Shown here: piece by piece, positions 6,777-59,698 of the stretch | How the letters are laid out: every line of letters starts with the position of its first letter | How positions within the stretch are numbered: the first letter of the stretch is position 1 | NCBI GenBank assembly: GCA_964601615.1 | Contig: CAZRNZ010000002.1 | Coordinates: 73,339 to 137,338 of the forward strand | Length of the DNA stretch: 64,000 bases | Direction of reading: 5' to 3' | Source of the DNA: an uncultured Candidatus Saccharibacteria bacterium | Lineage (GTDB): Bacteria > Patescibacteriota > Minisyncoccia > Phycocordibacterales > UBA918 | Position numbers and translations under genes: made by a program | The notes under the pieces: generated by a model | Told to the model about the DNA's origin: nothing | The model's input: only the letters and a program-made list of their open reading frames with translations | The model's database searches: none

Positions 6777-7871
6777 CTATTTATTCATAGGCATCACTAG
6801 ATAACGAATTGTATTATCACTAACGCCTTTAATTATGAGAGGTCGTCCAATTCCAGAAAACTGCATATTTATACTATCGTCAGAAAAATGACTCAAACAC
6901 TCTGATAAGTAACGCTGGTTAAAATTAAGCGTAATTTCATCTCCAGTAGTTTCTGCTCTGATTGATTCAGTAGTAGTTCCAGACTCCCCTCCTACAGCTG
7001 AAGCAGTTAAGGAATTATTGGTTACATAAATTCCAACTTGGAAAAATTTATTTAAGAAAATATTTGTCTTTCTAAAAACACGACTCAGGTCTTCTCGCAA
7101 AACCGTAGCTGAAGAAGAAAATTCTTTTGGCATAATTTGTTCATAATCAGGAAAAGAGCCAGCCACAAGTCTTGAGGTAACATAAACACCCTCGGTAAAT
7201 TCCAAGGAAAACTGATTTTCATTAAATCGACAGACAGGATCACTTTCTACCGCATCTAAAATACGAGCAATTTCAATAGCATTCTTTTGTGGAATTAAAA
7301 CTGAACTATCAAAAATAACTCCTTTTTGTGGAACTGTTTTTTCCATCAATCTAAAAGAGTCTGTTGTTACAAAAGTTAAAGAATGCTCTTTCTTTTGAAA
7401 GACATAAACACTTCCAAGCTCAGGCTTAATGAGTGACTGAGATGCAGCGAATGCTGCAGACTTAATTCCCAAGCTGAACATTTGATTAACAATAGTTTGT
7501 CCACTTCCTTCAATTCTTGGAATTGAAGGAAACTCATCTGGAGAAACAGCCTTGATCATAGTCTCAGAACTATTACCTTCTACAATCAAAGAATTGCCGT
7601 CTAAACGGAGCGTAATCTCTTTTTCTGTACCCAGGTTGATTGTTTGTATTAAAACACTAGCAGGGACTGCTACCTCGCCAATCTCAGCGTTCTTTGCTTC
7701 AACATCAGCTTCAATACCAATCTCTAAATTAGTAGCTGAGATAGTTAGTTTACTTTCTGTAACTTTAAGTAGAACACACTGTAAGACAGGTAGTGTTAAA
7801 TGTTTTGTACTTATCTTTCCGACCATCTCTAACCTCTTTAGAAAAGATTCTCTATTTAACGTTACTTTCAT
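6777..7871 (-). CDS. dnaN: DNA polymerase III beta sliding clamp
   Basis: Three-domain clamp, about 365 aa from MKVTLNRESFL. The ORF-track N-terminal 34-aa extension runs into the AT-rich origin region and was trimmed. Confidence 0.9.
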   Translation of the reverse strand: MKVTLNRESFLKRLEMVGKISTKHLTLPVLQCVLLKVTESKLTISATNLEIGIEADVEAKNAEIGEVAVPASVLIQTINLGTEKEITLRLDGNSLIVEGNSSETMIKAVSPDEFPSIPRIEGSGQTIVNQMFSLGIKSAAFAASQSLIKPELGSVYVFQKKEHSLTFVTTDSFRLMEKTVPQKGVIFDSSVLIPQKNAIEIARILDAVESDPVCRFNENQFSLEFTEGVYVTSRLVAGSFPDYEQIMPKEFSSSATVLREDLSRVFRKTNIFLNKFFQVGIYVTNNSLTASAVGGESGTTTESIRAETTGDEITLNFNQRYLSECLSHFSDDSINMQFSGIGRPLIIKGVSDNTIRYLVMPMNK

Positions 7872-8183
7872 AGTATCCACATTATATCGCGATTGTTGTG
7901 GATTGTCGTATATTATTTTTTTCTTTCTTCTTTTCTCTTTATTATTAGGGGTGTTGATTGCTGGATAAGTCAAAAATACTTTTGTAAATAAGGATATTTT
8001 TCATGTTTAATATCCACAGGTGTAACTTAGTAATGTTGGATATAACTGTTGGTAACTGTCTTTTCTGGATAAGGTGGAATATATACACCTTTTTACCCAC
8101 AATTAATATGAGTCATAAACAGCAAAAAATCACTATTTATTCACATGTTATTCACAAGGATTGCACAGATTATTTATTAATTA
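7872..8183. other. Candidate oriC between dnaA and dnaN, with DnaA-box-like 9-mers and an AT-rich unwinding region
   Basis: TTATNCACA-like boxes at about 8009 (atatccaca), 8094 (ttacccaca), 8146 and 8158 (ttattcaca). AT-rich run at 7890-7960. Confidence 0.55.
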
Positions 8184-8212
8184 AAGAGTCGCACCGAAGG
8201 TGCGACTCTTTA
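8184..8212 (-). terminator. dnaA terminator
   Basis: aaagagtcgcaccgaaggtgcgactcttt hairpin directly after the dnaA stop at 8216. Confidence 0.7.
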
Positions 8213-8215
8213 ATT

Positions 8216-9595
8216 TTATTTTAATAACATTCTAATCTGAGCTATCTCCTCTTCTAGATTCGAATCACTCTTCAGTTCGTTTTTTATCTTCTCGCAAGAA
8301 TGAATTACTGTTGTATGGTCTCTCCCTCCCAACTTTTGTCCGATAGTTGGATAAGAAACTGAAAAGTCTTCTCGTAGAATATACATTATCAGCTGACGAG
8401 GTTTAACTACTTCCTTCCGTCTGGTTTTTTCGTAGATACTTTTTGGATCAATATTAAAGTACTGCGCAACCTTTTCTACTACGTCATCAATCGCCATGCT
8501 ACGCCTAGGGCGGGTACTGTTTTTGATAATAGTTCTAACTTCCTCAAGGTTCAAAACCCTGCCCAAAAGTTGTGATTGACACATTATTGAGTTAAGTGCC
8601 CCTTCTAATTCGCGAATATTACCACTGACAGATTCAGCTAGGTGGTCGATAACTTCAGGATCTAGCGTGATACTGTTTTGAGCCGCTTTAGCTTTTAGGA
8701 TTGCTGCTCTAGATTCTAAATCTGGTGCAGGTATATCAACAATCATTCCGGCAGCAAATCGTGATTGTAAGCGTTCTTCCATGCCAGAAAGTAGGGCTGG
8801 ATGAATATCACTAGAAAAAACAATCTGCTTGTTGTTGTCGTGAAGAGTGTTAAACAAATGGAATAGTTCTTCTTGAGTTTTTTCCTTACTGTTTAAAAAC
8901 TGGACATCGTCCATTACCAGAACATCGTACTGACGGTACTTGTCCTTGAAGCTGTTAGCAGTTCCGCTTTGAAGTGAGTTGAAATAATCTACAGTAAAAC
9001 GTTCGGCTGTAACATAAAAAACTTTTTTTCCGCTTTGTTTTATCTTGTTCCCTACTGCTTGAATAAGGTGGGTTTTTCCGTGACCAGTTTTTCCATAAAT
9101 AAATAATGGATTATATGCAATTCCAGGTCGTTCGCTAACTGTTTTTGCAGCAGCATGAGCAAGGGCGTTGAATGGCCCAATAACAAAAGTATCAAAAGAA
9201 TACTTAGGATTTAGGTTATCGCTTTTGTTTATATAGTACTCTTCTAATGGTAAAGCAGAATTTACGTTTGAAGTACGGCTTTCTTGTCTTTTTTCACTTC
9301 TCTGTACAACTGTGTATTCAATATTTCGTACAAACGGTGCGTTTTCACGCAGTACGCGCAGAATCATCGATTGAAACTTGTCTTGCAACCAATCTCTTAC
9401 AAAAACACTTGGAACGCCAAGAGTTATAGTGCCGTCCTCAAGAGAGACTATACGAGTGTCGCGAAACCAAGTCTTAAAGTTAGCTGGAGTAATTGCTAAC
9501 TCGATACTAACTAAAACGTCATCCCATAACTTTTTAATATCAACCTGTTCTGATGTAATAAGACTGTTCACGATCGATGGTGATATTTGATTCAT
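8216..9595 (-). CDS. dnaA: Chromosomal replication initiator DnaA
   Basis: AAA+ Walker A GKTGHGKTHLIQAVGN, Walker B VLVMDDVQFL, and C-terminal DNA-binding domain with the HTTV motif. Confidence 0.95.
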   Translation of the reverse strand: MNQISPSIVNSLITSEQVDIKKLWDDVLVSIELAITPANFKTWFRDTRIVSLEDGTITLGVPSVFVRDWLQDKFQSMILRVLRENAPFVRNIEYTVVQRSEKRQESRTSNVNSALPLEEYYINKSDNLNPKYSFDTFVIGPFNALAHAAAKTVSERPGIAYNPLFIYGKTGHGKTHLIQAVGNKIKQSGKKVFYVTAERFTVDYFNSLQSGTANSFKDKYRQYDVLVMDDVQFLNSKEKTQEELFHLFNTLHDNNKQIVFSSDIHPALLSGMEERLQSRFAAGMIVDIPAPDLESRAAILKAKAAQNSITLDPEVIDHLAESVSGNIRELEGALNSIMCQSQLLGRVLNLEEVRTIIKNSTRPRRSMAIDDVVEKVAQYFNIDPKSIYEKTRRKEVVKPRQLIMYILREDFSVSYPTIGQKLGGRDHTTVIHSCEKIKNELKSDSNLEEEIAQIRMLLK

Positions 9596-16781: not shown

Positions 16782-16813
16782 CGTTACAATATAATAACAT
16801 TATCTGTTCAGCG

Positions 16814-27082: not shown

Positions 27083-28600
27083 TTAAATTTTTACTCTAAA
27101 TTGCAATGCTTCATATATATGTCTATTTTCTATCTCAGAATCATTTTCAAGATCAGCAATTGTACGAGCAACCTTAATTAGTCTATGTAATCCGCGTGGC
27201 GATAGATTTAGTTTAGTCGAAGATTGTTTTAGTAATTCTCTGACTTCTGGTGAAAGTGTTATGAGTTCATCTAAATCTCGACTCGACATTCTGGAGTTAA
27301 TAGTAATTCCCTTTCCTGCAAATCTTTCTTTTTGTTTGGCTCTAGCTTGTTGAATTTTTTCTCGAGCAATTTTAGTTTCGTCAGAAGTTTTTGTTTTTGT
27401 GGTTAGTGTTTCGTAATCTACGTGCGGAACATTTAACCACAAATCAATTCTATCCAAGATCGGTCCAGATATTTTTCCTTTGTATGTTTCCATCATAGTG
27501 GAAGCGTAGTCAGTAGTACCATCTTCGGTACCTCTATAAGGATTAAGTGCGGCTACCAAAACAAAGTCCGCTGGAAAATTTTCTGTCCCTTTTACTCTCG
27601 AAATTGTTACACATCTATCCTCTAGCGGTTGGCGCAGAGAATCAAGTGAACGTCTGTCGAACTCGGGAAACTCGTCCATAAACAAAACACCTTTATGAGC
27701 TAGGGTGACCTCGCCAGGTTTGGGATTGCTGCCACCGCCCACTAAACTTGTGAAACTAGCGGTGTGATGTGGTGTACGAAAAGGTGGACTTGAGGTTATT
27801 TGTTTTTGCAGTGAACCGACTATTGAGTGTATTGCCATGACTTCCAGGGCCTCTTCTTTGGTTAGAGGGGGTAAAAGTCCTTGAAAGGTTCTGGCCAGCA
27901 TTGTCTTTCCAGTTCCTGGCGGTCCGGCCATAATTATATTATGTAAACCTGCAGCAGCAATCATTAATCCGCGTTTAGCACTTTCTTGTCCCTTGATATC
28001 CTCAAGTCTAATATGCAAATCCATCCAATTATCAGAAATAATTGTTTCTTCTGATTCTGGAATTAAGCAGTGGTTTTCACGAGTACTATCTAGGTGATTA
28101 ATAACTTCATTTAAAGTTTTTGCGCCACGAACACAAATTCCCTCTACTAAAGAAGCTTCCTCACTATTTCCTTCTGGTACGATTACTTCAGTAAAGCCAT
28201 TATTTTTAGCAGTCATTACTGCAGATAATATTCCCTTCACTTCACGAAGCGATCCGTCTAATGAAAGTTCTCCTAAAAAGAGTGTCTTACTTACATCACC
28301 TTTAATTATTTTTGCAGCCAAAAGATATGCGATTGCCATTGGCAGATCAAAGATAGGCCCATCCTTTTTAAGATCGGCGGGCGCTAATGAGATTATTATT
28401 TTGTGATTCTCACTTTTCGGTGATTTGAAACCAGAGTTTTTAACAGCAGAACCAATTCTGTCTCGTGCTTCCTCAACCGCTTTTCCTGGTAGTCCAACAA
28501 CAGAAAAAGAGTACAGACCCCGTGAAAGATCTGCCTCTATTGTGATAATATCTCCGCGTAATACACCTGGCTGAGCAGTGAATACGCGAGCGACACTCAT
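27083..28600 (-). CDS. comM: Mg-chelatase-like AAA+ ATPase YifB/ComM
   Basis: Lon-like N-domain, Walker A GPPGTGKTMLAR, Walker B VLFMDEFPEF. Confidence 0.9.
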   Translation of the reverse strand: MSVARVFTAQPGVLRGDIITIEADLSRGLYSFSVVGLPGKAVEEARDRIGSAVKNSGFKSPKSENHKIIISLAPADLKKDGPIFDLPMAIAYLLAAKIIKGDVSKTLFLGELSLDGSLREVKGILSAVMTAKNNGFTEVIVPEGNSEEASLVEGICVRGAKTLNEVINHLDSTRENHCLIPESEETIISDNWMDLHIRLEDIKGQESAKRGLMIAAAGLHNIIMAGPPGTGKTMLARTFQGLLPPLTKEEALEVMAIHSIVGSLQKQITSSPPFRTPHHTASFTSLVGGGSNPKPGEVTLAHKGVLFMDEFPEFDRRSLDSLRQPLEDRCVTISRVKGTENFPADFVLVAALNPYRGTEDGTTDYASTMMETYKGKISGPILDRIDLWLNVPHVDYETLTTKTKTSDETKIAREKIQQARAKQKERFAGKGITINSRMSSRDLDELITLSPEVRELLKQSSTKLNLSPRGLHRLIKVARTIADLENDSEIENRHIYEALQFRVKI

Positions 28601-39431: not shown

Positions 39432-40040
39432 CTAAGTCTGGTCGCAAGGTTGAATATAATAGAAATCAGTTAATTTCAAGGCTTTTAGTAAATCATTTAC
39501 CTGCACACTCATCTCCTTGGTACCATCTACCACTAAGTCAGCAAATTCCTTAGGCGAGCTCTCTTTGGTGTATTCAAGTTCTTTAGTCTGCCAATTTAGC
39601 CAAGATTGTTTGATTTCTTCTTCACTTTTACCATCCATTCCTCTATCTCTTTCTATTCCCCTTTCTAAACAAATATCTAACGGAGTATCAACAAAAATCC
39701 CATAATCAATATATGGTCTTAAATTTGTTTTGAGTGAACTAATTCCCTCTAGAATCATTACTTCTGTAACAGCTTGGTTTGTCACTGGTTCAGGAAAATG
39801 TTCTTCCCACCACTTAGATCTAGGGTAATTAAGTTCTCTTTCTCCATTAATAATTGGCTCAAACACTAGCTTTATCATTTCATCTTGCCAAGCAGTCGGA
39901 TTCTCCCAGCTAGCAAAATCATCGGTATGAATTATTTCGGCTTGTAATTTATCAGATAAGTATTTTGCTAGTGTTGATTTGCCTGACCCACCGTGTCCGT
40001 CAACAGCTATCAGTTTTATGGGTAGTTTCCCTCTTTTCAT
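39432..40040 (-). CDS. P-loop nucleoside/nucleotide kinase family protein (uridine-kinase-like fold)
   Basis: Walker A AVDGHGGSGKSTLAKYL near the N-terminus, 202 aa. Substrate unknown. Confidence 0.65.
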   Translation of the reverse strand: MKRGKLPIKLIAVDGHGGSGKSTLAKYLSDKLQAEIIHTDDFASWENPTAWQDEMIKLVFEPIINGERELNYPRSKWWEEHFPEPVTNQAVTEVMILEGISSLKTNLRPYIDYGIFVDTPLDICLERGIERDRGMDGKSEEEIKQSWLNWQTKELEYTKESSPKEFADLVVDGTKEMSVQVNDLLKALKLTDFYYIQPCDQT

Positions 40041-40141
40041 AACAAAAGTCTATAACAAAAATTTCTTTATACAATATGCAATTTGCATGTTAATAACTGT
40101 TCAACTTGAACAGTCGTTTATGTATATAATATATACATTCT

Positions 40142-40807
40142 ATGATTCGAAATGAAGAAAAGTACCAAAAAGCAACATATTTTCGTAAGCGTGGTTTTTC
40201 TTATACAGAAATAGCTAAATTGGTGGGTGTTTCCCGTGGAACATTAAGTAATTGGTTTGCTAAAAAAAGCTTTTCTAAAAAGGTTAAAGTTGATAATGAA
40301 ATAAAGACAAGAAAAGAAAATGTTAAAAGAATCTCACTTTTAAATAAGGCCCGTCAAACAGAAAAAAATAAAAAGCATAAAGAAGTTCTTAAATCAGCCA
40401 ATACTGAGTATAAAAATTATCGCCATCTTCCCCACTTTATGGCGGGAATAGCCCTATATGTGGCCGTGGGTGATTTAGGTAACAATAACAATATTAGATT
40501 ATCTGATTCTAGAATAGATATTCATAAGATCTTTATAAGGTTTTTAGTAGATTTTCTTGGGATGGATAAAAAAGATATCAAATGTTGGTTAGCAATTGAT
40601 TCTAAAGAAAAGGAATCTAAGGAAGTTGCTGTTTGGTCTAAGTTATTAAAGATATCTTCTGAAAATTTCTATAAAAGTCAGGTCATAAGTAATATTAATC
40701 AATCAACATTGCGAAAAACCATAGGAAATACTATAATCGTAAACGCTACTTTGAAGCAGAAGCTCAATAGATGGGTAGAGTTGGCCTCAAAAGAGTTAGT
40801 TAAATAA
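40142..40807 (+). CDS. Lys-rich protein with an N-terminal helix-turn-helix
   Basis: RKRGFSYTEIAKLVGVSRGTLSNWF HTH at residues 15-40. The rest has no recognisable domain. The stop abuts tRNA-Gly(GCC). Confidence 0.5.
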   Translation: MIRNEEKYQKATYFRKRGFSYTEIAKLVGVSRGTLSNWFAKKSFSKKVKVDNEIKTRKENVKRISLLNKARQTEKNKKHKEVLKSANTEYKNYRHLPHFMAGIALYVAVGDLGNNNNIRLSDSRIDIHKIFIRFLVDFLGMDKKDIKCWLAIDSKEKESKEVAVWSKLLKISSENFYKSQVISNINQSTLRKTIGNTIIVNATLKQKLNRWVELASKELVK

Positions 40808-40809
40808 AA

Positions 40810-40880
40810 GCGGCCATGGTTAAGTGGTATAATGAGTCCTTGCCAAGGATTAGTGGAGAGTTCGATTCTCTCTGGCCGCA
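40810..40880 (+). tRNA. tRNA-Gly (anticodon GCC)
   Basis: Acceptor GCGGCCA/TGGCCGC, anticodon stem AGTCC/GGATT with loop TTGCCAA, T-arm GAGAG-TTCGATT-CTCTC. Confidence 0.8.
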
Positions 40881-40924
40881 CATATGAAAAACCCCCTTAT
40901 AGGGGGTTTTTCATATGTGCGGCC
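40874..40924. repeat. 23-bp perfect inverted repeat (hairpin) whose 5-prime arm overlaps the last 7 nt of tRNA-Gly(GCC)
   Basis: ggccgcacatatgaaaaaccccc ttat gggggtttttcatatgtgcggcc. The arms contain the CATATGAAA(AA)C half of the 14-bp palindrome family. Confidence 0.8.
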
Positions 40925-40960
40925 AGAGGAAGATACTTCCTGTCTCTCCGTAAAAAATCA

Positions 40961-41050
40961 AAAAGCGGAGTGTTGAACTTTTGCCTTATAAGCAAAAGTT
41001 CCGCGGTTTTGGGCAGCGGGTACTTTTGAGCAAAGCGAATTAGGAACTTT
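40961..41050 (+). repeat. tRNA-linked repeat, copy B (rearranged or degenerate)
   Basis: Shares aaagcggag(t/c)gttg, ccgcggttttgggcagcgggtac (like cgcggttttcccgtgctcgcac) and gagcaaagcgaattaggaactt with copy C. Confidence 0.55.
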
Positions 41051-41096
41051 TGTTGCTTCTCTCTAACATGTCTGCCAACACTTCCTTTTCCCTAGT

Positions 41097-41823
41097 GTTT
41101 CATATGAAACAAGTTATCCACAAAGTTAAATGTTCTGTCCTAGATTTTGAGACTGTGTATAACTAAGGGGACAAGTGGATTAAGGACTTTCTGTTTTGTT
41201 CTTAATATTTGTAAATATGGCTATAAATAAGGGTCTTTTAAGACTTTTATGCCCTATACAGTAATCTTATACGTTTCACGTGAAACATCTAGATATATGT
41301 TTCATATGAAACGTTACAAATATAATGCACTTGAGAGTGAGGTTATAATCAGATTAGTGACCAATAAAAAGAATAATAAAATAATGGGTAATTTAGGTGA
41401 AGATATTGCCGAAAAATACCTTAGAAATAAGGGTTTTATTATTTTAGAAAGAAACTATTTAAGAAAATGGGGAGAAATAGATATTGTTACACGTGGAACC
41501 GGACTTGAATGGAAAAATTCTGATGTTTCATATGAAACATCAGAAAAAGTACATTTTGTGGAAGTTAAGAGTGTTTCATATGAAACAAAAGAGGAATTAG
41601 CTTGGGCTGTTACACATGAAACATGGCGACCAGAAGAAATGGTTCATTTTCATAAAATGAAACAAATAAGAAAAGTCGTTGAATCTTGGTTGATTGAAAA
41701 TAATTGGGAAGGGGATATTCAGATTGACGTCATTGCAGTCAGGATCGTTTCACGTGAAAAGTATGCAACAGTAAAATATATACCAAACATAATCTTAGAT
41801 TAATGTGTCACGTGTAACATAAC
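41097..41823. repeat. Array of about 8 copies of a 14-bp palindrome GTTTCA(TA/CG)TGAAAC, irregularly spaced, in and flanking the YraN-like gene
   Basis: Perfect copies at 41097, 41273, 41299, 41525 (extended 20-bp palindrome gatgtttcatatgaaacatc) and 41573. One-mismatch copies at 41609 and 41747. Degenerate copies at about 41480 and 41806. Confidence 0.85.
41384..41803 (+). CDS. yraN: YraN/UPF0102-family predicted endonuclease (restriction-endonuclease-like fold) with repeat-encoded insertions
   Basis: GNLGEDIAEKYLRNKGFIILERNYLRKWGEIDIV ... VHFVEVKS ... IDVIAV matches the YraN core motifs. The ORF-track start at 41249 adds 45 aa that contain two palindromes, so the start was set at the Met preceding the GxxGE motif. 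Confidence 0.6.
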   Translation: MGNLGEDIAEKYLRNKGFIILERNYLRKWGEIDIVTRGTGLEWKNSDVSYETSEKVHFVEVKSVSYETKEELAWAVTHETWRPEEMVHFHKMKQIRKVVESWLIENNWEGDIQIDVIAVRIVSREKYATVKYIPNIILD

Positions 41824-41860
41824 TAAGTGGCTAATAATATGGATATTATAGGTATGTCCT

Positions 41861-41906
41861 TTATAGAAGACGTTTATGTCTTTTATAAAGGACATACATT
41901 TTGATT
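41861..41906. repeat. Hairpin repeat ATGTCCTTTAYA...TRTAAAGGACAT, copy 2 (copy 1 at 36157-36185)
   Basis: gtatgtcctttata gaagacgtttatgtcttt tataaaggacatac. Copy 1 is atgtcctttaca taattt gtaaaggacat. Confidence 0.7.
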
Positions 41907-41947
41907 AATACGACCTTCAGTTTGAATTAATTTTGTCCACATAAATA

Positions 41948-41981
41948 AAGCGCTTTTAAACTTTAGTTTAAAAGCGCTTTA
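41948..41981 (-). terminator. Terminator downstream of tRNA-Pro
   Basis: aaagcgcttttaaactttagtttaaaagcgcttt. Confidence 0.65.
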
Positions 41982-41988
41982 TTTGTTG

Positions 41989-42059
41989 TCGGGGAGCCGG
42001 GAATCGAACCCGGACCACACGGTCCCAAACCGCGTACACTACCACTATGCTACACCCCG
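41989..42059 (-). tRNA. tRNA-Pro (anticodon UGG)
   Basis: Acceptor CGGGGTG/CTCCCCG with one T-T mismatch, anticodon stem CGCGG/CCGTG with loop TTTGGGA, T-arm CCGGG-TTCGATT-CCCGG. Confidence 0.7.
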
Positions 42060-42086
42060 AGGAAGTGAGAGTCGTGATATTTGTTT

Positions 42087-42146
42087 TCTCAGAGTTCAAA
42101 CGAAAAAAGGGGAGTTTCCTCACATTTTTTCGTTTGAACTCTGAGA
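42087..42146. promoter_or_regulatory. 22-bp perfect inverted repeat in the divergent tRNA-Pro / sigma-factor promoter region
   Basis: tctcagagttcaaacgaaaaaa [16-nt loop] ttttttcgtttgaactctgaga. Confidence 0.6.
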
Positions 42147-42311
42147 TAGCAAGCTTTGCTTGCAAAATATCAAGACCGAATAACGAAAGGGTGAAAGCTT
42201 GCTTACACCACTGATACCTTTTGATTAACTTCCGCAAATTCATCAACAAACTTGCGACAAAATCATATCACTTTTTCTGAAAAAAGCGAGACTTGAATAA
42301 GATTATGTGCA

Positions 42312-42956
42312 ATGAAAGATATCGGCATTTGGCTCGTCTATGTATATAATGGATTCCACATGGCTAGTAACCACAAAACAGGCCAAATATCTGGAAGCCA
42401 GGAGGATCTTTTTTTGAAAGCCTTTGACGAGTATGGAGATGCGCTTTTTCGACACGCCTTCATGCGAATAAGTGACAGAGAGCGGGCAATAGACCTGGTT
42501 CATGATACTTATGCAAAAGTGTGGTCATATGTAAGGTCTGGTCATGAAATAGATTCCTTTCGACCTTTTCTATATAAGGTTTTAAACAATCTGATTATAG
42601 ACGAGTATCGAAAGAAGAAAGAATCATCGCTAGATGCTTTGCTAGAAGCTGATGGTGTGAGTGAGGCTAGTTTTGATGGCTTGATAGAAGACGGTACAGA
42701 ATCTCTCATCAACAATATCGATGGCGGAAAGGCCTTTGATTTACTCAGTACATTGCCAGATGATTATAGGGAAGTGATGATACTAAAGTTTGTTGATGGG
42801 CTAGGTCCTAAAGAAATAGCATCACTTATCGAAGAGACGGAAAATGTTGTCTCTGTAAGACTCTATCGTGCTATGAAGGCCTTGCGAAACGCAATTGAAG
42901 AAGAGGAAAATCGCTTGATCGGTAATAGTAAAAATTCCAATCAAGATGATATTTAA
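42312..42956 (+). CDS. RNA polymerase sigma-70 family factor, ECF-like
   Basis: Region 2 (DLVHDTYAKVWSYV...FRPFLYKVLNNLIIDEYRKK) and region 4 HTH (DYREVMILKFVDGLGPKEIASLIEETENVVSVRLYRAMKALR). An alternative start is at 42360. Confidence 0.85.
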   Translation: MKDIGIWLVYVYNGFHMASNHKTGQISGSQEDLFLKAFDEYGDALFRHAFMRISDRERAIDLVHDTYAKVWSYVRSGHEIDSFRPFLYKVLNNLIIDEYRKKKESSLDALLEADGVSEASFDGLIEDGTESLINNIDGGKAFDLLSTLPDDYREVMILKFVDGLGPKEIASLIEETENVVSVRLYRAMKALRNAIEEEENRLIGNSKNSNQDDI

Positions 42957-44205
42957 ATATAAAATGGAAGATTTTAATCAACAATTTAATAAAAAAGCCA
43001 AGCAGATATCTTTAACTGCAAGTGAGCGCAATGAACTGCGTGAGAGTATTTTGGTTTATATGGATTATCATCCTTTAACTGAAAGTCAGGGTCTTCCAAA
43101 AAGAAAGAAAAAAGATGTTCAAAACTTTTTTCAGAGCCAAATTAATAATGGCTGGTTTTGGGTAAAAGCATCAGGTGTGACAGCAATGTTTTTTATAATG
43201 GTTGTACCTCTTTTGGCAGAAAGATCTTTACCAGGGGATGTGTTGTATCCAATTAAGGTTAGTTTTAACGAAGAATTGCGCGGTGCTTTGGTTTCTTCAC
43301 CATACCAGAAGATTGAATGGGAAACAGAGAGGTTGGAGCGCAGAGTGTCCGAAGTAAAGCTTTTAGCAGATTCTGGGAAGCTTACAACTTCAGCCGAAGC
43401 AGATGTAGCTAAGGCTATGCGTCAGCATAGTAATGCAGCAAAGCAAAGTATTGAGTCAATCAGAGAAAGTAATTCGGATGATGCTTCTATTGCAAATATT
43501 GCTTTAGCTTCAACCTTGGACATATCGGCTGAGATGTTGTCGGGGAGGGTTGCAACAGGAAGTGCCACTTCATCTGCAATGGTTGATGCTGTTAGTGAGG
43601 CTAGAGCGTCAATGGTCTTGGTTGGAAATAATGTTTCATACGATAATTTGATGTCCCGTATTGAGTCTGAAACAACTAGAGCTTACGAATATCTGAATGG
43701 TATAAGCGCTTCTATTTCATCTAGTGATAAGCAGGCAATAGAACGTCGGCTAGAAGATGTTAAAGGAAGGGTAGAATCTGCAACAGAATTACGTGAAAGA
43801 GATGGTGCCGCTGCTGTAAGTGCTTTAGTGGAGGCATTGAGCAGTACTAATAAAGTGATGGTTTTCATGACAAATCTTGAGTTGCGCAAAACTGTTGCCA
43901 TTGAAAAATTAATTCCTTCTGTGCCAACTAAGAGTGAGGAATCTGAATTATTGAAGGTGAAGTTATCTGATATTTCATTGACTGCATCCAAGATTGATAC
44001 GGCCATATCTGAATTAGCTACCACCTCAGAAGGGTATAGTGACATGGTTTTACAAATGAAAGAATATAAAGAGATGAGTTCATCCAGTTTGAATATGTTA
44101 GAGAAGGGGGAGTTACAGAATGCTAAGGAATCTGTTGCTAATATTATGAAAAAAGTAGATCAAGTTATTGTTAATCTGAAATTGGTTGGTGTGGAGATTA
44201 AGTAG
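42946..44205 (+). CDS. Single-pass membrane protein overlapping the sigma gene, putative anti-sigma factor
   Basis: About 70-aa cytoplasmic N-terminus, one TM (WFWVKASGVTAMFFIMVVPLLA), about 330-aa helical extracytoplasmic domain. Role inferred from the 11-bp overlap with the ECF sigma gene. Confidence 0.45.
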   Translation: MIFKYKMEDFNQQFNKKAKQISLTASERNELRESILVYMDYHPLTESQGLPKRKKKDVQNFFQSQINNGWFWVKASGVTAMFFIMVVPLLAERSLPGDVLYPIKVSFNEELRGALVSSPYQKIEWETERLERRVSEVKLLADSGKLTTSAEADVAKAMRQHSNAAKQSIESIRESNSDDASIANIALASTLDISAEMLSGRVATGSATSSAMVDAVSEARASMVLVGNNVSYDNLMSRIESETTRAYEYLNGISASISSSDKQAIERRLEDVKGRVESATELRERDGAAAVSALVEALSSTNKVMVFMTNLELRKTVAIEKLIPSVPTKSEESELLKVKLSDISLTASKIDTAISELATTSEGYSDMVLQMKEYKEMSSSSLNMLEKGELQNAKESVANIMKKVDQVIVNLKLVGVEIK

Positions 44206-54388: not shown

Positions 54389-56137
54389 ATGCGTATTCAA
54401 GATTCACAACTAAAACGCTTTATTGCCGACTCAGGTTTGGTATCAAAAACTGACCTTGCCTTAGCAGAGCAGGCCGCAAAAAGGGAAGAAAGAACCCTTT
54501 CTGATTCTCTTTTATCGGGTGGTTATTTAAAGGAAGACGATTTGCGTCGCATTGAGTCATATATATTAGGAATACCTTTCGTGTCTTTGCGCGGACAAAA
54601 AATTCCTTTTGATGTCCTATCTCTAATTCCAGAGCCTGTTGCCAGAAATCACAATATTGTCTCATATAAAAGAAATGAAACTTCTTTGGAGGTGGCGATG
54701 CTTAATACAGCTGATTTAGCTTCAGTTGATTTTATTAAGAAAAAGACTGGTTTAAAAATACTACCTCGTTTAACTGACAATGACAGTATTAGAGAGGTAT
54801 TGTTACAGTATCAAAAAACCTTAAAAGATGAATTTGGGGAAATTATTGCAGGCGACGCAGCTTCTCTTAAATTGATTGATGGTGAAAATGAAGAGGTGAA
54901 CGAAGATGATTTGAAGAAAATGGCGGAAGATTTACCTGTTATCCGCATTGTGGACACACTTTTGCGACATGCAATCATTCAAGGTGCTTCTGACATTCAT
55001 ATTGAACCAATGGAAAATGAGCTTTTGGTTCGTTATCGTATTGATGGCATTTTACATGATGCTATGACTTTGCCAAAAATTTCTTCAGGCAGTATCGTGG
55101 CCCGTATTAAGGTTTTGTCTAACTTAAAACTTGATGAAAAACGCTTACCACAAGACGGTCGCTTTAAAATGGAAATGGACGGACAAAAGGTTTCTTTTCG
55201 TGTTTCAGTGTTACCAATTTTTTTTGGTGAGAAAGTAGTGATGCGTTTGTTGCGTGAAAATCGCAGTGGTTTTACTTTAGAGGGAATTGGTTTTCATGGT
55301 TCTTCGCTAGAGCGAGTTCATGGCGCAATGAAGCAAACAACAGGAATGATACTCGTGACCGGACCAACCGGTTCAGGTAAAACAACCACTCTTTATACTA
55401 TTCTTGATTTACTTAACACACCGGAAGTAAATATTTCTACCATTGAGGATCCGATTGAATACCAGATGCCTCGTATAAACCAAACGCAAGTTAAGCCTGA
55501 GATTGGTTTTACTTTTGCTAATGGACTTCGGTCATTGATGCGTCAAGACCCAGATATTATTATGGTGGGAGAAATTCGTGACCAAGAAACTTCTGGTTTG
55601 GCTATTAATGCGGCTCTAACTGGTCACTTGGTGTTGGCAACTGTGCATACTAATTCCGCTGCTGGAACAGTAGCTCGTTTAATGGAGATGGGTGCAGAGT
55701 CTTTTTTACTGGTTTCTACTTTACGAGTAGCTATCGGTCAACGATTGGTGCGAAGATTGAGTGGCGAGAAAGAAGCATATACACTTTCAACTGCTGAGAA
55801 AAAAGAGCTCGCTCGACATGTTGATTTAGATAAGATAATGGATACTTTGAAGGAGGAGGGGGTGGTTAAAAAAGATGCTACATGGTCTTCAATTCCGTTT
55901 TATCGTCCGAAGGAAGGGGTGATTGATGATGATGCCTATAAAGGGCGACTTGGTATTCATGAAGTTCTTACAGTATCTCCTTTAATAAAAGAGAAGGTAA
56001 TTGCCGGTGGTACGGCTGATGATATTGAAGAAATTGCTCGCAAGGAAGGCATGTTAACAATGTTGGAGGATGGAATTTATAAAGCAGCCCGTGGAGTAAC
56101 TTCCATTGAAGAAGTCTTGCGTGTCATTAATGAGTAA
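54389..56137 (+). CDS. pilB: Type IV pilus assembly ATPase PilB (GspE family)
   Basis: Walker A GPTGSGKTTTLY, Asp/His boxes, N-terminal GspE_N-like domain. Good SD sequence ggagggaaATG. Confidence 0.9.
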   Translation: MRIQDSQLKRFIADSGLVSKTDLALAEQAAKREERTLSDSLLSGGYLKEDDLRRIESYILGIPFVSLRGQKIPFDVLSLIPEPVARNHNIVSYKRNETSLEVAMLNTADLASVDFIKKKTGLKILPRLTDNDSIREVLLQYQKTLKDEFGEIIAGDAASLKLIDGENEEVNEDDLKKMAEDLPVIRIVDTLLRHAIIQGASDIHIEPMENELLVRYRIDGILHDAMTLPKISSGSIVARIKVLSNLKLDEKRLPQDGRFKMEMDGQKVSFRVSVLPIFFGEKVVMRLLRENRSGFTLEGIGFHGSSLERVHGAMKQTTGMILVTGPTGSGKTTTLYTILDLLNTPEVNISTIEDPIEYQMPRINQTQVKPEIGFTFANGLRSLMRQDPDIIMVGEIRDQETSGLAINAALTGHLVLATVHTNSAAGTVARLMEMGAESFLLVSTLRVAIGQRLVRRLSGEKEAYTLSTAEKKELARHVDLDKIMDTLKEEGVVKKDATWSSIPFYRPKEGVIDDDAYKGRLGIHEVLTVSPLIKEKVIAGGTADDIEEIARKEGMLTMLEDGIYKAARGVTSIEEVLRVINE

Positions 56138-57365
56138 TATGAAATTTACCTACACTGGTGTTACAAAAGAAGGTATTGATATCAAAGAAACTGTTGAGGC
56201 TTCAGATCGTTTTGCGGTCTATGAAATAGCGAGAGAGAATGGTGTGGTGGTAACTAAGGTGGATGAGGAAGGTAAATTTTCCTTAGATAAGTTTTTTAAT
56301 ATTGAAAAAATCAATGCTTTCTTAAGCCGTATTTCGGCTGATGAGTTAGTAATGATCACTAGAAACTTAAGTGGAATGTTGACGGCTGGACTACCACTTT
56401 CTAGGGCTTTGACGGTAATTGAAAGACAGAGTCGTAATCCAAAGACAAAAGTTGTTATTGCTGAGGTTCGAGAAGATATTCAAAAAGGAAATCAGTTTAG
56501 TCAGGCTCTGGAAAATCATTCTAGAGTTTTTGATGATTTATATATTGCCATGGTAAGAGCTGGAGAAGAGAGTGGAAAATTATCTGATGCTCTAAAATTG
56601 CTTTCGGTCCAGATGGAAAGATCTATGGCTCTCAAAAAGCGTATTAAGAGCGCGATGATTTACCCGACGATTGTATTTGTGATTATGGGTATTATTGGGA
56701 TTGTAATGATGATTTATGTAATGCCATCAATTACAGGTACTTTTAAAAAAATGGGAGTTGAGTTACCAGCTACTACACAATTACTTATCTCTGTTTCTGA
56801 TTTTATGGTAGCAAATACAGTAGTTTTTCTAGGAGGGGTATTTGCTACTATTGTTGGTTTTATTATTTTTCTTAGAACAAATATTGGAAAAACTATTTGG
56901 CACTGGCTGATTTTACACTTACCGGTAATTGGTACGATGGTAAAAGAAGTAAACTCTGCTCGTACAGCACGCACAATGTCCTCGCTTTTAACTTCAGGTG
57001 TTGATGTTATCCATGCAATTGATATTACAACTGACGTGGTTCAAAACGTTTATTACAAACCTATACTTAAAAAAGCACGCAAGGCTGTGGAAAAGGGTGA
57101 TGCACTTTCTAGTGTTTTTATCGCTAATGAAAAACTCTATCCAGTTTTTGTAGGTGAAATGATGATGGTGGGAGAAGAAACTGGACAGGTAGGTAAGATG
57201 ATGGAGGACTTGGCAACTTTTTATGAAAATGAAGTAGAGCGCAAGACTAAGGATCTATCAACAATTATTGAGCCGATGTTGATGGTGGTAATTGGTGGTG
57301 TGGTTGGTTTCTTTGCGCTAGCAATGATTGCCCCGATTTATTCTATTACTGATTCGATTGGTTAA
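56130..57365 (+). CDS. pilC: Type IV pilus platform protein PilC (GspF family)
   Basis: Two GspF repeats with 3-4 TM helices. Start ATG overlaps the pilB stop (atgagtaa). Confidence 0.88.
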   Translation: MSNMKFTYTGVTKEGIDIKETVEASDRFAVYEIARENGVVVTKVDEEGKFSLDKFFNIEKINAFLSRISADELVMITRNLSGMLTAGLPLSRALTVIERQSRNPKTKVVIAEVREDIQKGNQFSQALENHSRVFDDLYIAMVRAGEESGKLSDALKLLSVQMERSMALKKRIKSAMIYPTIVFVIMGIIGIVMMIYVMPSITGTFKKMGVELPATTQLLISVSDFMVANTVVFLGGVFATIVGFIIFLRTNIGKTIWHWLILHLPVIGTMVKEVNSARTARTMSSLLTSGVDVIHAIDITTDVVQNVYYKPILKKARKAVEKGDALSSVFIANEKLYPVFVGEMMMVGEETGQVGKMMEDLATFYENEVERKTKDLSTIIEPMLMVVIGGVVGFFALAMIAPIYSITDSIG

Positions 57366-57512
57366 AGTTATTTATTGATTTTCTCTGGTTTTAAAAGGAG
57401 TGATATTTTTCTCAATTTTGCCTAGCTATTGAATTAGATTTTATTTTGCTGTTTAATACTCGATAGGTAGATTTCTATTCTAGAAATCTTTGCTTCAAAG
57501 GGAGGTTTCCTA

Positions 57513-58178
57513 ATGTTGGTAAAGTTCTCTAACAATAACAGCGCTAGTCGTGGGTGGAGCATTTATTTTCTATTCTTAATTTCTTTGCTCATTTGTAGCT
57601 TTTCCTCGCTTACAATTAACACTTCCGCTTCTGAAAGTGTTCGCCTTGAGGGCGATGTCCTCGTCTTGGAAGAGGTGATAGAAAAAGCTCGGATTGAGAA
57701 TGTTCCTTTTGGTCTTAGTGCTGAACAGGCACGAGACTTGATATCTGGAAAAGTTTCAGAAATACAACTTAATGATGATAATGATGTTCGTATCGGTTGG
57801 TTTGTCCCAATCGTTACTGAAGAGTATGCGGCTATTCGCAAGGTTGCCTATCAAGGTGATTGGCAAATAAATTCATATTTTGAGAAATTGGATCTCAATT
57901 GGAAGAATATATTAACGTTGAATTTATTTTTTTATGGACCAATTCTGCTATGGGTTTGTATTATCTTGATGTATCGTCGTATAACTCACTTGGTTGAGTT
58001 GGACGATCTCGGTTTGGGGTTTGCTGCCTTTGCTGTCGTGCCCTTTACGGCAGTGCACTTTTTCGTTTATTATTATTGTGGCGTTAAAGAATTTCTGACT
58101 TTGCTTATTATGGCTGCTTCAATTGTGATAGTAGCTTTTATTGTAAGGAAACAAAAAATAAGTGTTGTACATTCTTGA
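57513..58178 (+). CDS. Polytopic membrane protein in the pilus locus, function unknown
   Basis: N-terminal TM plus 3 C-terminal TM helices. Strong SD aagggaggTTTCCTAATG. No peptidase A24 motifs seen. Confidence 0.45.
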   Translation: MLVKFSNNNSASRGWSIYFLFLISLLICSFSSLTINTSASESVRLEGDVLVLEEVIEKARIENVPFGLSAEQARDLISGKVSEIQLNDDNDVRIGWFVPIVTEEYAAIRKVAYQGDWQINSYFEKLDLNWKNILTLNLFFYGPILLWVCIILMYRRITHLVELDDLGLGFAAFAVVPFTAVHFFVYYYCGVKEFLTLLIMAASIVIVAFIVRKQKISVVHS

Positions 58179-58187
58179 AAAGAACTT

Positions 58188-58213
58188 AAAGAACGGGTTT
58201 AAACCCGTTCTTT
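58188..58213 (+). terminator. Terminator
   Basis: aaagaacgggtttaaacccgttcttt. Confidence 0.6.
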
Positions 58214-58239
58214 TATTTTGCCTAGTGTAATATATACGT

Positions 58240-58707
58240 ATGCAAAAACTATTTACTAGCAAAGGATTTTCTTTAATGGAATTAATAGTGGTAATTGCCA
58301 TTGTTTTGATTTTGTTGGCAGTTTCAGTCTGGTCTTTGCAATTTATGCAGGAAAGAGTTTTGCTTAATACTTTGCAAAGTAGTTTGGTTTTTAACTTAGA
58401 AGAAGCCAAAGCCAAAGCGGTAGCTGGAAAGAATGGCTTGCCACATGGAATTTATTTTACTGAAAATAGCTATGTGCAATTTAGTGGTTACGAATATGAT
58501 CCAGAAGATGTAAACAATGTTGTACATGATATCGACAGTCGCTTATTATTGAGCACTGATATACTAGGAAATGAAGAGGTAATTATTTTTTCTCGTATTA
58601 CTGGGTCTGCCAGTGATGAGGCAATTATAGAAATATCTTCTCGGGCTAATCCAGAAAATAGAAAAGTGATTAAGATTGGTCAGGGAGGAGGAATTACCTC
58701 ACAATAG
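58240..58707 (+). CDS. Type IV pilin (prepilin-type N-terminal cleavage/methylation domain)
   Basis: MQKLFTSKG/FSLMELIVVIAIVLILLAV, a class III signal with Glu5. Confidence 0.75.
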   Translation: MQKLFTSKGFSLMELIVVIAIVLILLAVSVWSLQFMQERVLLNTLQSSLVFNLEEAKAKAVAGKNGLPHGIYFTENSYVQFSGYEYDPEDVNNVVHDIDSRLLLSTDILGNEEVIIFSRITGSASDEAIIEISSRANPENRKVIKIGQGGGITSQ

Positions 58708-58710
58708 TAA

Positions 58711-59193
58711 ATGAGAGTTTATCTTAAAAACCAAAATATAAGTCGCGCTTTCTCAATTGTAGAGGTGATTGTGGCGGCCGCAATTTTTACTATTACTCTA
58801 GCGGCATTCGTCGCTTCTTTTGAATTTTTTAATTCGATAGAGAACCAAACTGAAGAAAAGACTACGGCCGCGTTTTTGTTAGAAGAAACTAGCGAAGCTG
58901 TTGTTTTATTACGTGATTTTGCTTGGGAGAATATCAGTGAACTAAATCAAGGAGATTGGTATTATTTGAGTTGGAACGGTAGTGAATATGTTCTGTCAGA
59001 ATCTGATGAAGAAAATTCTCTTTACGCAAGAAGAGTAATGGTTTTCTCGGTTTATCGAGATAATTTAGGTAATTTGGCTGGAGCAGGAACTGAGGATTTA
59101 AATACTAAAAGAGTAGTTATTGAGATTTTGGGGAGAGATAGAAGTCAGATAATTAGTACTGCAGAAATGTTGGTCCATAATAATTATGAGTAA
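58711..59193 (+). CDS. Pilin-like protein (prepilin-type N-terminus, Ala at -1)
   Basis: NISRA/FSIVEVIVAAAIFTITLAAF with Glu5. Confidence 0.6.
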   Translation: MRVYLKNQNISRAFSIVEVIVAAAIFTITLAAFVASFEFFNSIENQTEEKTTAAFLLEETSEAVVLLRDFAWENISELNQGDWYYLSWNGSEYVLSESDEENSLYARRVMVFSVYRDNLGNLAGAGTEDLNTKRVVIEILGRDRSQIISTAEMLVHNNYE

Positions 59194-59698
59194 GTTTGCA
59201 CAGAAAAAAGGTTTCTCGTTAGTAGAGCTGTTGGTTTATTTAGCTAGCATGACAGTTATTTTGTTGGCACTTTCTTATGTGATGTTCAATGTTTATAATC
59301 TTTATCTTTCTCTGGTTTCTAATTCTCGTGCCGATAGAACAGCTAGTACTTTGATGCAGGTTTTATCTACAGAGATTCGTTCTGGTGCAACCATTGATCA
59401 ATCAAATAGTGTATTCAATGCCCCAATTGGACGACTTTCTATTAGTACTTACAGCAATATGAATCTGGTAGAAAAAGATTTCTATGTTGCAGATAATCGG
59501 ATTGTAATGGATGTTGATGGGACAAAAACAGAGATGACGCCAGAAGATATTGATGTTTCTAAGTTTTTGTTTAATCAAATTTTGACACCAGTTTCTTATG
59601 CTGTTCGTTATGAATTTGATTTAACCTATTCAGTTAGGGGAGAATTGGTCACAAAGACTTATCCTGGATTGGTAGTATTAAGACGTTCATATGATTAA
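59186..59698 (+). CDS. Type IV pilin or minor pilin
   Basis: MSKFAQKKG/FSLVELLVYLASMTVILLAL with Glu5. Confidence 0.75.
   Translation: MSKFAQKKGFSLVELLVYLASMTVILLALSYVMFNVYNLYLSLVSNSRADRTASTLMQVLSTEIRSGATIDQSNSVFNAPIGRLSISTYSNMNLVEKDFYVADNRIVMDVDGTKTEMTPEDIDVSKFLFNQILTPVSYAVRYEFDLTYSVRGELVTKTYPGLVVLRRSYD

What the first reader, a model, noticed from the sequence alone, without database searches (positions are those of the whole stretch)
41097..41823. About eight copies of a 14-bp perfect palindrome GTTTCA(TA/CG)TGAAAC packed into 730 bp, mostly in-frame inside a YraN-family endonuclease gene
Perfect copies are at 41097, 41273, 41299, 41525 and 41573; the 41525 copy is part of the 20-bp palindrome gatgtttcatatgaaacatc. 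Near-perfect copies are at 41609 and 41747, and degenerate copies at about 41480 and 41806. Five lie in frame 0 of the ORF and are translated as VS(R/Y)ET, VTHET or VSREK in non-conserved positions of the YraN core. DNA-level palindromy is preserved even though the peptide is not conserved, so selection appears to act on the DNA or RNA. Possible explanations are an operator array, a miniature palindromic mobile repeat that has invaded the gene, or target sites for a restriction-endonuclease-fold protein, which YraN is predicted to be. The related 23-bp hairpin at tRNA-Gly (40874-40924) carries the same CATATGAAA..C half-site.
Basis: seen in the sequence. Interest (0 to 1): 0.75.

Follow-up and report, generated by a model that had tools for sequence, protein, structure and literature searches.

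The report
Dense parS centromere array in yraN
The repeated palindrome is the standard bacterial chromosome-partition site (parS, where ParB loads); nine copies sit in and around one small gene beside DnaA boxes near the replication origin of a candidate-phyla-radiation bacterium, and the layout is conserved across at least 74 related species.

Summary
There are five exact GTTTCAYRTGAAAC copies and four copies with 1-2 mismatches in 41096-41819, and no exact copy elsewhere in the 64 kb (0 expected).

The motif is the canonical chromosomal parS, TGTTNCACGTGAAACA, with a relaxed Y-R centre (CG, TA, CA or TG). The window is the origin region of a Patescibacteria (Kaiserbacteria/Paceibacteria-like) chromosome. 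It holds dnaN and dnaA at 6.8-9.6 kb, and cumulative G-C skew reaches its minimum at 40105.

In 80 orthologous yraN loci, parS-like sites are about 77 times denser at yraN than in the flanks. They recur at fixed places: upstream, in frame inside the gene, and just after the stop codon. At the in-gene VSYET site the synonymous positions are frozen (GTT 74/74, TCA 70/74, GAA 71/71). Changes in one half-site are almost never compensated in the other. Selection therefore acts on double-stranded DNA sequence, not on a hairpin and not on the protein alone.

A conserved block of 2-3 DnaA boxes lies about 100 bp upstream of the first conserved parS pair.

The best explanation is a ParB-loading centromere array.

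The main gap is that no ParB gene lies in the window or within 10 kb of yraN in any locus, and whole genomes could not be searched.

The parts
41096..41111 (.). parS-1, TGTTTCATATGAAACA, a perfect 16-bp palindrome with TA centre; intergenic
41114..41122 (+). Perfect DnaA box TTATCCACA, 2 bp from parS-1; present at the same relative place in the closest relatives
41154..41182 (-). Block of tandem DnaA-box-like 9-mers (TGTGTATAA ... AGTGGATTA). Consensus in orthologs is TGTGGATAA..GTGGATAgGTGGATAAAGGACA
   Evidence: 149 boxes with at most 1 mismatch in the -500..-250 bin of 73 loci, 8.1 per kb against about 0.3 per kb elsewhere
41272..41287 (.). parS-2, CGTTTCACGTGAAACA (canonical CG centre); intergenic; positionally conserved upstream site
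41298..41313 (.). parS-3, TGTTTCATATGAAACG; intergenic; second member of the conserved upstream pair (26-bp spacing)
41384..41803 (+). yraN (UPF0102, PD-(D/E)xK nuclease), 139 aa; host gene carrying five in-frame parS-like sites
41485..41500 (.). parS-4 (weak, 2 mismatches in the 14-mer), TGTTACACGTGGAACC, encoding IVTRGT just after the catalytic GEIDIV motif. In other lineages the same place reads GTTGCACGTGAAAC (VARET)
41518..41545 (.). 28-bp perfect palindrome containing parS-5 (41524-41539, TGTTTCATATGAAACA). It encodes the lineage-specific insert NSDVSYETSEK
41572..41587 (.). parS-6, TGTTTCATATGAAACA, encoding VSYET right after the catalytic VEVK motif. It is the most conserved site, present in about 70 of 74 species, with frozen synonymous positions
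41608..41623 (.). parS-7, TGTTACACATGAAACA, encoding VTHET. In orthologs the amino acids vary (SHET, SRGT, SYGT) but the DNA stays parS-like
41746..41761 (.). parS-8, CGTTTCACGTGAAAAG, encoding VSREK
41804..41819 (.). parS-9 (2 mismatches), TGTGTCACGTGTAACA, starting 1 bp after the yraN stop codon; positionally conserved (+251 to +254) in many orthologs
40142..40807 (+). Syntenic gene for an N-terminal HTH plus C-terminal LAGLIDADG-like domain protein; rival candidate binder
40810..40881 (+). tRNA-Gly(GCC), left boundary of the module; followed by the terminator-like hairpin 40866-40932
41988..42059 (-). tRNA-Pro(TGG), right boundary of the module; the yraN terminator hairpin 41852-41897 lies before it
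6777..9595 (-). dnaN and dnaA with their own DnaA-box clusters (8010-8156, 9727-9746). These show the window is the origin region, 31-35 kb from the array

Best explanation
The nine palindromes form a chromosomal centromere: a dense array of parS sites, consensus tGTTtCAYRTGaAACa.

Inferred mechanism, from what is known of ParABS systems: dimers of the partition protein ParB bind each site, close into CTP-dependent sliding clamps and spread onto flanking DNA. The resulting partition complex marks the origin region for segregation, and probably for SMC loading.

In this Patescibacteria clade the array has settled on the small gene yraN and its two flanks. Several sites are written into the reading frame as V-S/T-Y/H/R-E/G-T, so the DNA site and the protein constrain each other. 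A conserved set of DnaA boxes lies immediately upstream, which puts the centromere at or next to a DnaA-binding origin or regulatory region.

Shown here: motif identity, clustering, conservation at the DNA level, and origin-region context. Inferred, not shown: that ParB is the binding protein, and everything downstream of binding.
For: 1. Motif identity. The sites match the pan-bacterial parS TGTTNCACGTGAAACA (PMC7022226). A matrix built from 180 non-coding sites in 74 species gives G2 168/180, T3 180/180, C6 176/180, A7 176/180, G11 180/180 and A13-14 at least 179/180. Variation is concentrated at positions 5/12 and 1/16, and 5/12 is the N of the canonical consensus. G2 and A7 are the parS-type bases, not the Noc-site bases.
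2. Centre. It was left free in the scan, yet it is Y-R in 179/180 sites, with CG the most common.
3. Clustering. In the window: 5 exact copies against 0 expected, and none elsewhere in 64 kb. In 72 orthologous loci that could be scored: 3.4 sites per kb at yraN against 0.044 per kb in 1.09 Mb of flank.
4. DNA-level selection. At the +21 site the codons are GTT 74/74 (background 0.29), TCA 70/74 (0.23), TAT 66/69 (0.55) and GAA 71/71 (0.62), while neighbouring Val and Glu codons are mixed. At +57 the amino acids change but the DNA stays parS-like.
5. Not a hairpin. Only 6 of 243 half-site changes are compensated in the other half.
6. Not specific to yraN. Unrelated genes inserted beside yraN in L057 and L063 also carry in-frame VSRET/VSHET-type peptides, the in-frame coding signature of parS, where the scan places sites. 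Among 150 diverse YraN representatives, 77 carry the pentapeptide, at shifting positions.
7. Origin context. dnaA and dnaN are in the window. The cumulative G-C minimum is at 40105. Conserved DnaA boxes lie about 100 bp upstream of the parS pair.
Against: The tools could not search whole genomes, so the presence of ParB in these organisms is assumed, not shown.

Many sites have TA, CA or TG at the centre instead of the canonical CG, and binding of such variants by a ParB has not been tested.

A syntenic HTH/LAGLIDADG-like protein of unknown function is an alternative binder.

A density of 9 sites in 0.73 kb is far above described chromosomal arrays: 4-10 sites per species in the rows of the review's Table 1 that I read, 22 in M. 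xanthus by an abstract.
Confidence: 0.8

Rival explanations
1. The array is an operator or binding array for the neighbouring lineage-specific protein (40142-40807). This protein has an N-terminal HTH and a C-terminal single LAGLIDADG-like domain, so it probably forms a homodimer. It would bind the palindromes either as a regulator of yraN or as a replacement for ParB as the centromere-binding protein.
Against: The sites would have to match the 16-bp universal ParB site by coincidence, including its tolerated N position. Seven loci with several kb of upstream sequence lack the HTH gene nearby yet keep the array, for example L010, L011 and L014. The family appears narrower than parS-bearing yraN: 49 clusters against 1576, although the word-index search is less sensitive for fast-evolving proteins. 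There is no fold similarity to ParB.
Confidence: 0.1
2. The repeats are conserved only because YraN needs the peptides VSYET, VTHET and VSREK. On this reading the palindromes are a by-product of protein-level selection plus codon bias.
For: The peptides are invariant or nearly so in the clade. They sit next to the catalytic GEIDIV and VEVK motifs.
Against: Synonymous positions are frozen far beyond codon usage, while adjacent codons vary. Four of the nine copies are non-coding, and the upstream and post-stop copies are positionally conserved. At +57 the amino acids vary while the DNA motif is kept. The same motif occurs in unrelated neighbouring genes.
Confidence: 0.03
3. The sites are recognition or cleavage targets of the YraN nuclease itself or of a restriction-modification system (CATATG/CACGTG), or they are copies of a miniature palindromic mobile element.
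For: YraN has a restriction-endonuclease-like fold. CACGTG is absent from the rest of the window: 0 outside the cluster against 7.5 expected window-wide.
Against: YraN is reported as a single-stranded-DNA endonuclease acting with ComM on transformation D-loops, and comM is present at 27083-28600. The conserved unit is 14-16 bp, not a 6-mer. There are no dispersed copies or element ends, and the copies sit at fixed orthologous positions in 74 species.
Confidence: 0.03

Closest known systems
Chromosomal parS sites of ParABS systems (B. subtilis Spo0J sites, Caulobacter, Corynebacterium, Myxococcus and Streptomyces parS clusters)
   Same: The same 16-bp palindrome, TGTTNCACGTGAAACA. Location in the origin domain. 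Multiple copies. Sites tolerated inside coding sequence; from my own knowledge, one B. subtilis site lies inside spo0J. The B. subtilis variant TGTTCCACGTGAAACA (again from my own knowledge) occurs here as its reverse complement, GTTTCACGTGGAAC.
   Different: About 9 sites in 0.73 kb, where described chromosomes spread 2-24 sites over kilobases to hundreds of kilobases. The centre is relaxed to Y-R, with TA frequent. Up to five sites are written in frame into one 139-aa gene and fixed as invariant peptides across a class-level clade. The par genes are not adjacent. A DnaA-box block is adjacent.
Plasmid centromere arrays (F sopC, 12 x 43-bp repeats; P1 parS; RK2 KorB sites)
   Same: Many closely packed binding sites for a partition protein within under 1 kb (general knowledge).
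   Different: Those are regular tandem repeats with plasmid-specific sequences in non-coding DNA. Here the spacing is irregular (26, 36, 39, 48, 58 bp and so on), the sequence is the chromosomal consensus, and half the sites are coding.
Noc-binding sites (NBS, TATTTCCCGGGAAATA)
   Same: A palindromic 16-mer bound by a ParB paralog.
   Different: Positions 2 and 7 here are G and A (168/180 and 176/180), the parS-type bases, not the A and C of the NBS. NBS are also scattered away from the origin (general knowledge).
DnaA-box clusters and oriC
   Same: Two or three tandem boxes close to TTATCCACA in one orientation, next to an AT-rich stretch, at the local G-C skew minimum.
   Different: The block is 31 kb from dnaA, which has its own box clusters. 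No unwinding element or DnaA-trio was identified, and origin function is untested.

Membership tests
Chromosomal parS (ParB loading site) | 16-bp inverted repeat matching TGTTNCACGTGAAACA | tested here: met
   Four full 16-mers with 0-1 change outside the centre. The matrix of 180 non-coding orthologous sites reproduces the consensus, including the variable N position. The consensus is taken from PMC7022226. Deviation: the centre is Y-R (CG, then TA, CA, TG) rather than strictly CG.
Chromosomal parS (ParB loading site) | Located in the origin-proximal domain of the chromosome | tested here: met
   dnaN and dnaA lie 31-35 kb away in the same window. The cumulative G-C minimum is at 40105, about 1 kb from the array.
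Chromosomal parS (ParB loading site) | Rare elsewhere, i.e. not a generic genome-wide repeat | tested here: met
   There is no exact copy in the other 63 kb. Density in 1.09 Mb of flanks of the orthologous loci is 0.044 per kb against 3.4 per kb at yraN. Whole genomes were not scanned.
Chromosomal parS (ParB loading site) | Conserved as DNA sequence rather than as peptide or as secondary structure | tested here: met
   Frozen synonymous sites. Conserved non-coding copies. Half-site changes not compensated, 6 of 243.
Chromosomal parS (ParB loading site) | A cognate ParB (ParB N-terminal CTPase domain plus HTH) encoded in the genome | not testable with these tools
   None in the window or within 10 kb either side in 80 loci.
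Chromosomal parS (ParB loading site) | Bound by ParB, with CTP-dependent spreading | not testable with these tools
   Needs ChIP-seq, EMSA or BLI.
Noc-binding site | A at position 2 and C at position 7 of each half-site | tested here: not met
   G2 168/180 and A7 176/180.
Miniature mobile palindromic repeat (REP/MITE-like) | Dispersed copies at non-orthologous places, with element ends or target duplications | tested here: not met
   Only one cluster in the window. Fixed orthologous offsets in 74 species.
Structured RNA or hairpin element | Base pairing maintained by compensatory changes | tested here: not met
   6 of 243 changes compensated. No Rfam family in 40000-43000 apart from the tRNAs.
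oriC (replication origin) | Cluster of DnaA boxes next to an AT-rich unwinding region, at the strand-skew switch | tested here: inconclusive
   A conserved block of 2-3 boxes and the skew minimum at 40105. In 26 of 39 loci the local minimum lies 0-4.5 kb upstream of yraN. However, dnaA has its own box clusters, skew is confounded with gene orientation, and no unwinding element was identified.

The most novel reading that the evidence does not exclude
The tRNA-Gly-to-yraN interval may be the true replication origin of these Patescibacteria. On this reading it is a compact combined origin and centromere module: a DnaA-box triplet, then an AT-rich stretch, then a parS array partly written into a gene. 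It would lie 31 kb from dnaA in this genome. A more radical variant is that the parS-like sites are read by the syntenic HTH/LAGLIDADG-like protein in lineages that have lost ParB.
Probability: 0.3. Interest if true: 0.7.

Novelty: new variant of a known kind. Interest (0 to 1): 0.55.

Why it matters
Chromosome segregation and origin architecture appear to be undescribed for the candidate phyla radiation. No paper in the searchable library combines parS, ParB and Patescibacteria.

The locus gives a concrete centromere, and possibly an origin, that can be tested for a very large uncultured clade.

It is also a clear example of a DNA-binding site and a protein sequence constraining each other. 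Invariant peptides such as VSYET next to a nuclease active site exist at least partly because they spell parS.

The array is a practical landmark for orienting and closing metagenome-assembled genomes. The Y-R centre variants predict a ParB with relaxed central specificity.

Tried and rejected
- I looked for ParB and ParA by signature regexes (GERRxRA, ENLQR-type, KGGxGKT) and by phmmer with B. subtilis Spo0J and Soj in the window and 80 loci. Nothing was found.
- I tried to walk beyond the window with the look-up of encoding contigs. Only short Logan contigs were returned.
- Six literature searches on ParB, parS or chromosome segregation in the candidate phyla radiation, Patescibacteria or Saccharibacteria found nothing relevant.
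- Livny et al. 2007 was not held in the library.
- I ran no further search on ParB, because only the 120 best hits are listed and those would be close relatives of the query, not Patescibacteria proteins.
- An Rfam scan of 40000-43000 found only the two tRNAs and spurious miRNA-hairpin hits.
- Rejected explanations: RNA hairpin, MITE, restriction-modification motif, YraN target, and protein-only conservation. Reasons are given under the rival explanations.
- The 40229 copy (GTTTCCCGTGGAAC, encoding VSRGT in the HTH motif of the neighbouring gene) is probably chance. Orthologs read VSKGT or VSKAT there.

Full report
**1. Observation**

The region 41096-41819 holds five exact copies of GTTTCAYRTGAAAC, at 41097, 41273, 41299, 41525 and 41573. 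Dinucleotide-preserving shuffles of the window gave 0.00 expected. Allowing up to 2 mismatches adds 41486, 41609, 41747 and 41805, plus one isolated copy at 40229; that is 10 matches against 1.33 expected.

Read with one more base on each side, 41097, 41525 and 41573 are perfect 16-bp palindromes, TGTTTCATATGAAACA. The copy at 41273 reads CGTTTCACGTGAAACA. The 41525 copy is the core of a 28-bp perfect palindrome. All four CACGTG hexamers in the 64-kb window lie in this cluster.

**2. Corrections to the finding**

The long ORF 41249-41803 is not the gene. The Pfam UPF0102/YraN match and all orthologs start at ATG 41384, MGNLGEDIAEKYL. The array therefore has three intergenic upstream copies, five in-frame copies inside yraN, and one copy starting 1 bp after the stop codon.

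The in-gene peptides are not at variable positions. In 21 orthologs V64, S65, E67, T68, T80, R124 and E125 are invariant.

One reading frame of the palindrome contains TGA (TGT TTC AYR TGA). Only two frames are open, reading VS[YHR]ET and FH[VM]K, so in-frame placement is partly forced.

**3. What the motif is**

tGTTtCAcgTGaAACa is the universal chromosomal parS, the loading site of ParB/Spo0J. The review PMC7022226 gives it as "mainly TGTTNCACGTGAAACA" and lists 4-10 sites per species in the rows of its Table 1 that I read; the abstract of PMC3899335 gives 22 for M. xanthus. It also states that most parS sites lie in the origin domain.

The window is an origin region of a Patescibacteria chromosome, with closest relatives among Candidatus Kaiserbacteria, Nomurabacteria and Paceibacteria. 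It carries:
- ruvB, yebC, ruvC, tyrS and a PBP;
- dnaN (6777-7973) and dnaA (8216-9595), with DnaA-box clusters at 8010-8156 and 9727-9746;
- rnpA and yidC.

Cumulative G-C skew falls from position 0 to a minimum at 40105 and then rises to the end of the window.

**4. Comparative test**

A scan of GTDB species representatives returned 80 orthologous yraN loci with up to 10 kb of flank on each side. The main results are:

- **Clustering.** parS-like 14-mers (at most 1 mismatch) occur at 3.4 per kb within -700 to +500 bp of the catalytic VEVK motif. In the remaining 1.09 Mb the density is 0.044 per kb, a 77-fold difference.
- **Fixed positions.** Sites recur at fixed offsets:
  - an upstream non-coding pair, which is 41273 and 41299 in the window;
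  - a site after GEIDIV;
  - a site in a lineage-specific insert;
  - +21 (VSYET);
  - +57 (V[ST][HRY][EG]T);
  - +195;
  - +251 to +254, just after the stop codon.
- **Copy number.** Loci carry 1-9 sites, median 4.
- **Synonymous sites.** At +21 the codons are GTT 74/74 (background 0.29), TCA 70/74 (0.23), TAT 66/69 (0.55) and GAA 71/71 (0.62). The Val and Glu codons three to four positions upstream are mixed, for example GTA 34, GTT 20, GTG 13, GTC 5, and GAG 48, GAA 26.
- **Peptide varies, DNA does not.** At +57 the peptide varies (SHET, SRGT, SYGT, THET) while the DNA remains a parS variant. One form is GTTTCACGTGGAAC, which by my recollection is the reverse complement of the B. subtilis spo0J site.
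- **Position matrix.** A matrix of 180 non-coding sites reproduces the canonical consensus. Variation is concentrated at positions 5/12, the N of the consensus, and at 1/16. The unconstrained centre is Y-R in 179 of 180 sites: CG 76, TA 40, CA 37, TG 26.
- **No compensation.** Changes in one half-site are compensated in the other in only 6 of 243 cases. Base pairing (RNA stem or cruciform) is therefore not what is selected; the sequence of each half-site is, as expected for a dimeric duplex-binding protein.
- **Not tied to YraN.** Where other genes have been inserted between the upstream HTH gene and yraN (L057, L063), those genes also carry in-frame VSRET/VSHET-type peptides, the in-frame coding signature of parS, where the scan places sites. 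The element belongs to the locus, not to the YraN protein.
- **Wider spread.** Among 150 representatives of this YraN subfamily at 35-65% identity, 77 carry at least one [VI][STAL][RHY][EG]T pentapeptide and 36 carry two or more. The position after the ExK motif shifts between them. The habit appears widespread in this YraN subfamily, whose named members are Patescibacteria; the representatives themselves carry no taxonomy.

**5. Surroundings**

Synteny is conserved: tRNA-Arg, an HTH gene (69 of 80 loci), tRNA-Gly(GCC), the module, yraN, tRNA-Pro, an ECF-type sigma factor (69 of 80) and a DUF5667 protein.

About 100 bp upstream of the conserved parS pair lies a conserved block of two or three tandem DnaA-box-like 9-mers, TGTGGATAA..GTGGATAgGTGGATAAAGGACA. 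There are 149 boxes with at most 1 mismatch in one 250-bp bin across 73 loci, 8.1 per kb against about 0.3 per kb elsewhere. The block is followed by a short inverted repeat and an AT-rich stretch. In the window these are the perfect box at 41114 and the block at 41154-41182.

In 26 of 39 loci with 9 kb on both sides, the local G-C skew minimum lies 0-4.5 kb upstream of yraN, and only once downstream, at the far edge of one locus (L068). This is compatible with the origin being here rather than next to dnaA. It is not conclusive, because skew is confounded with gene orientation and dnaA has its own box clusters.

**6. The trans-acting factor**

No ParB or ParA homolog is present in the window or in the 80 loci. 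Whole genomes could not be reached, and the literature library holds nothing on ParB or parS in this radiation. ParB as the binder is therefore an inference from motif identity.

YraN itself is reported as a single-stranded-DNA endonuclease that partners with ComM in resolving transformation D-loops (bioRxiv 10.1101/2024.02.06.579203). A comM gene is at 27083-28600. YraN is an unlikely reader of a duplex palindrome.

**7. The tRNA-Gly hairpin**

The hairpin at 40866-40932 is a terminator-like stem whose outer arms pair with the tRNA 3' end. Orthologs have the same architecture with unrelated stem sequences, and CATATG occurs in only a few of them. It is not part of the array.

**8. Verdict**

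This is a real, strongly selected cis-element: a dense parS-type centromere array embedded in and around yraN, next to conserved DnaA boxes in the origin region, and conserved across at least 74 species.

The kind of element is known. The variant features are new as far as I could check:
- density of about 9 sites in 0.73 kb;
- a relaxed Y-R centre;
- several sites written in frame into one small conserved gene, which fixes the peptides;
- separation from the par genes;
- juxtaposition with DnaA boxes 31 kb from dnaA.

Confidence in the parS/ParB reading is 0.8. The reading that this interval is the origin itself is put at about 0.3.

Noticed in passing
window 41114-41182; L001-L080 at -500 to -250 bp from the yraN VEVK motif: A conserved block of 2-3 tandem DnaA-box-like 9-mers in one orientation (with an extra opposed perfect box in the closest relatives) lies about 100 bp upstream of the parS pair in about 70 of 74 species. 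It is followed by a GGACA..TGTCC inverted repeat and an AT-rich stretch containing GGCTATAAATAAGG. It could be oriC, a DnaA-titrating cluster or a DnaA-regulated promoter.
   Followed up: partly
window 40105 (whole-window profile): Cumulative G-C skew reaches its minimum at 40105, between the divergent genes 39432-40040(-) and 40142-40807(+). That is 31 kb from dnaA, not beside it. Genes from 11 to 40 kb are mostly on the minus strand.
   Followed up: partly
[not shown]
   Followed up: partly
window 27083-28600 (-) and 54389-59698 (+): A ComM-type helicase (ChlI, Mg_chelatase and Mg_chelatase_C domains), the reported partner of YraN, lies 13 kb from yraN. A T2SS-E/F ATPase and platform pair with pseudopilin-like genes lies at 54-60 kb. 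Together they resemble a competence toolkit.
   Followed up: no
window 12315-17233 (-), possibly extending to about 21350: A type-IV-secretion-like cluster (T4SS pilin, TraG/VirB4-type P-loop ATPase, PrgI-family protein) followed on the same strand by several large ORFs with no Pfam match (to about 21350), all on the minus strand between dnaA and the array.
   Followed up: no
window 40866-40932, 41852-41897, 42077-42156: Very long near-perfect hairpins (20-27 bp stems) follow the tRNA and yraN genes. The one after tRNA-Gly pairs with the tRNA's own 3' end, and the same is seen in several orthologs (L001, L007, L052, L080).
   Followed up: partly
window, whole: CACGTG occurs four times, all inside the array, and zero times in the other 63 kb (about 7.5 expected from base composition). 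This suggests avoidance of the parS core elsewhere.
   Followed up: partly
L057 6640-9521; L063 7986-8519: Genes inserted between the HTH gene and yraN in other species (two ORFs of 385 and 575 aa in L057; an ORF of 177 aa in L063, which looked deformylase-like by eye but was not tested) carry several in-frame parS copies (VSRET, VSHET, VTRET). The centromere region appears to recruit sites into whatever gene lies there.
   Followed up: partly
window 40229-40242: GTTTCCCGTGGAAC (2 mismatches) encodes VSRGT in the recognition-helix region of the neighbouring HTH protein. Orthologs read VSKGT or VSKAT there, so it is probably coincidental.
   Followed up: partly
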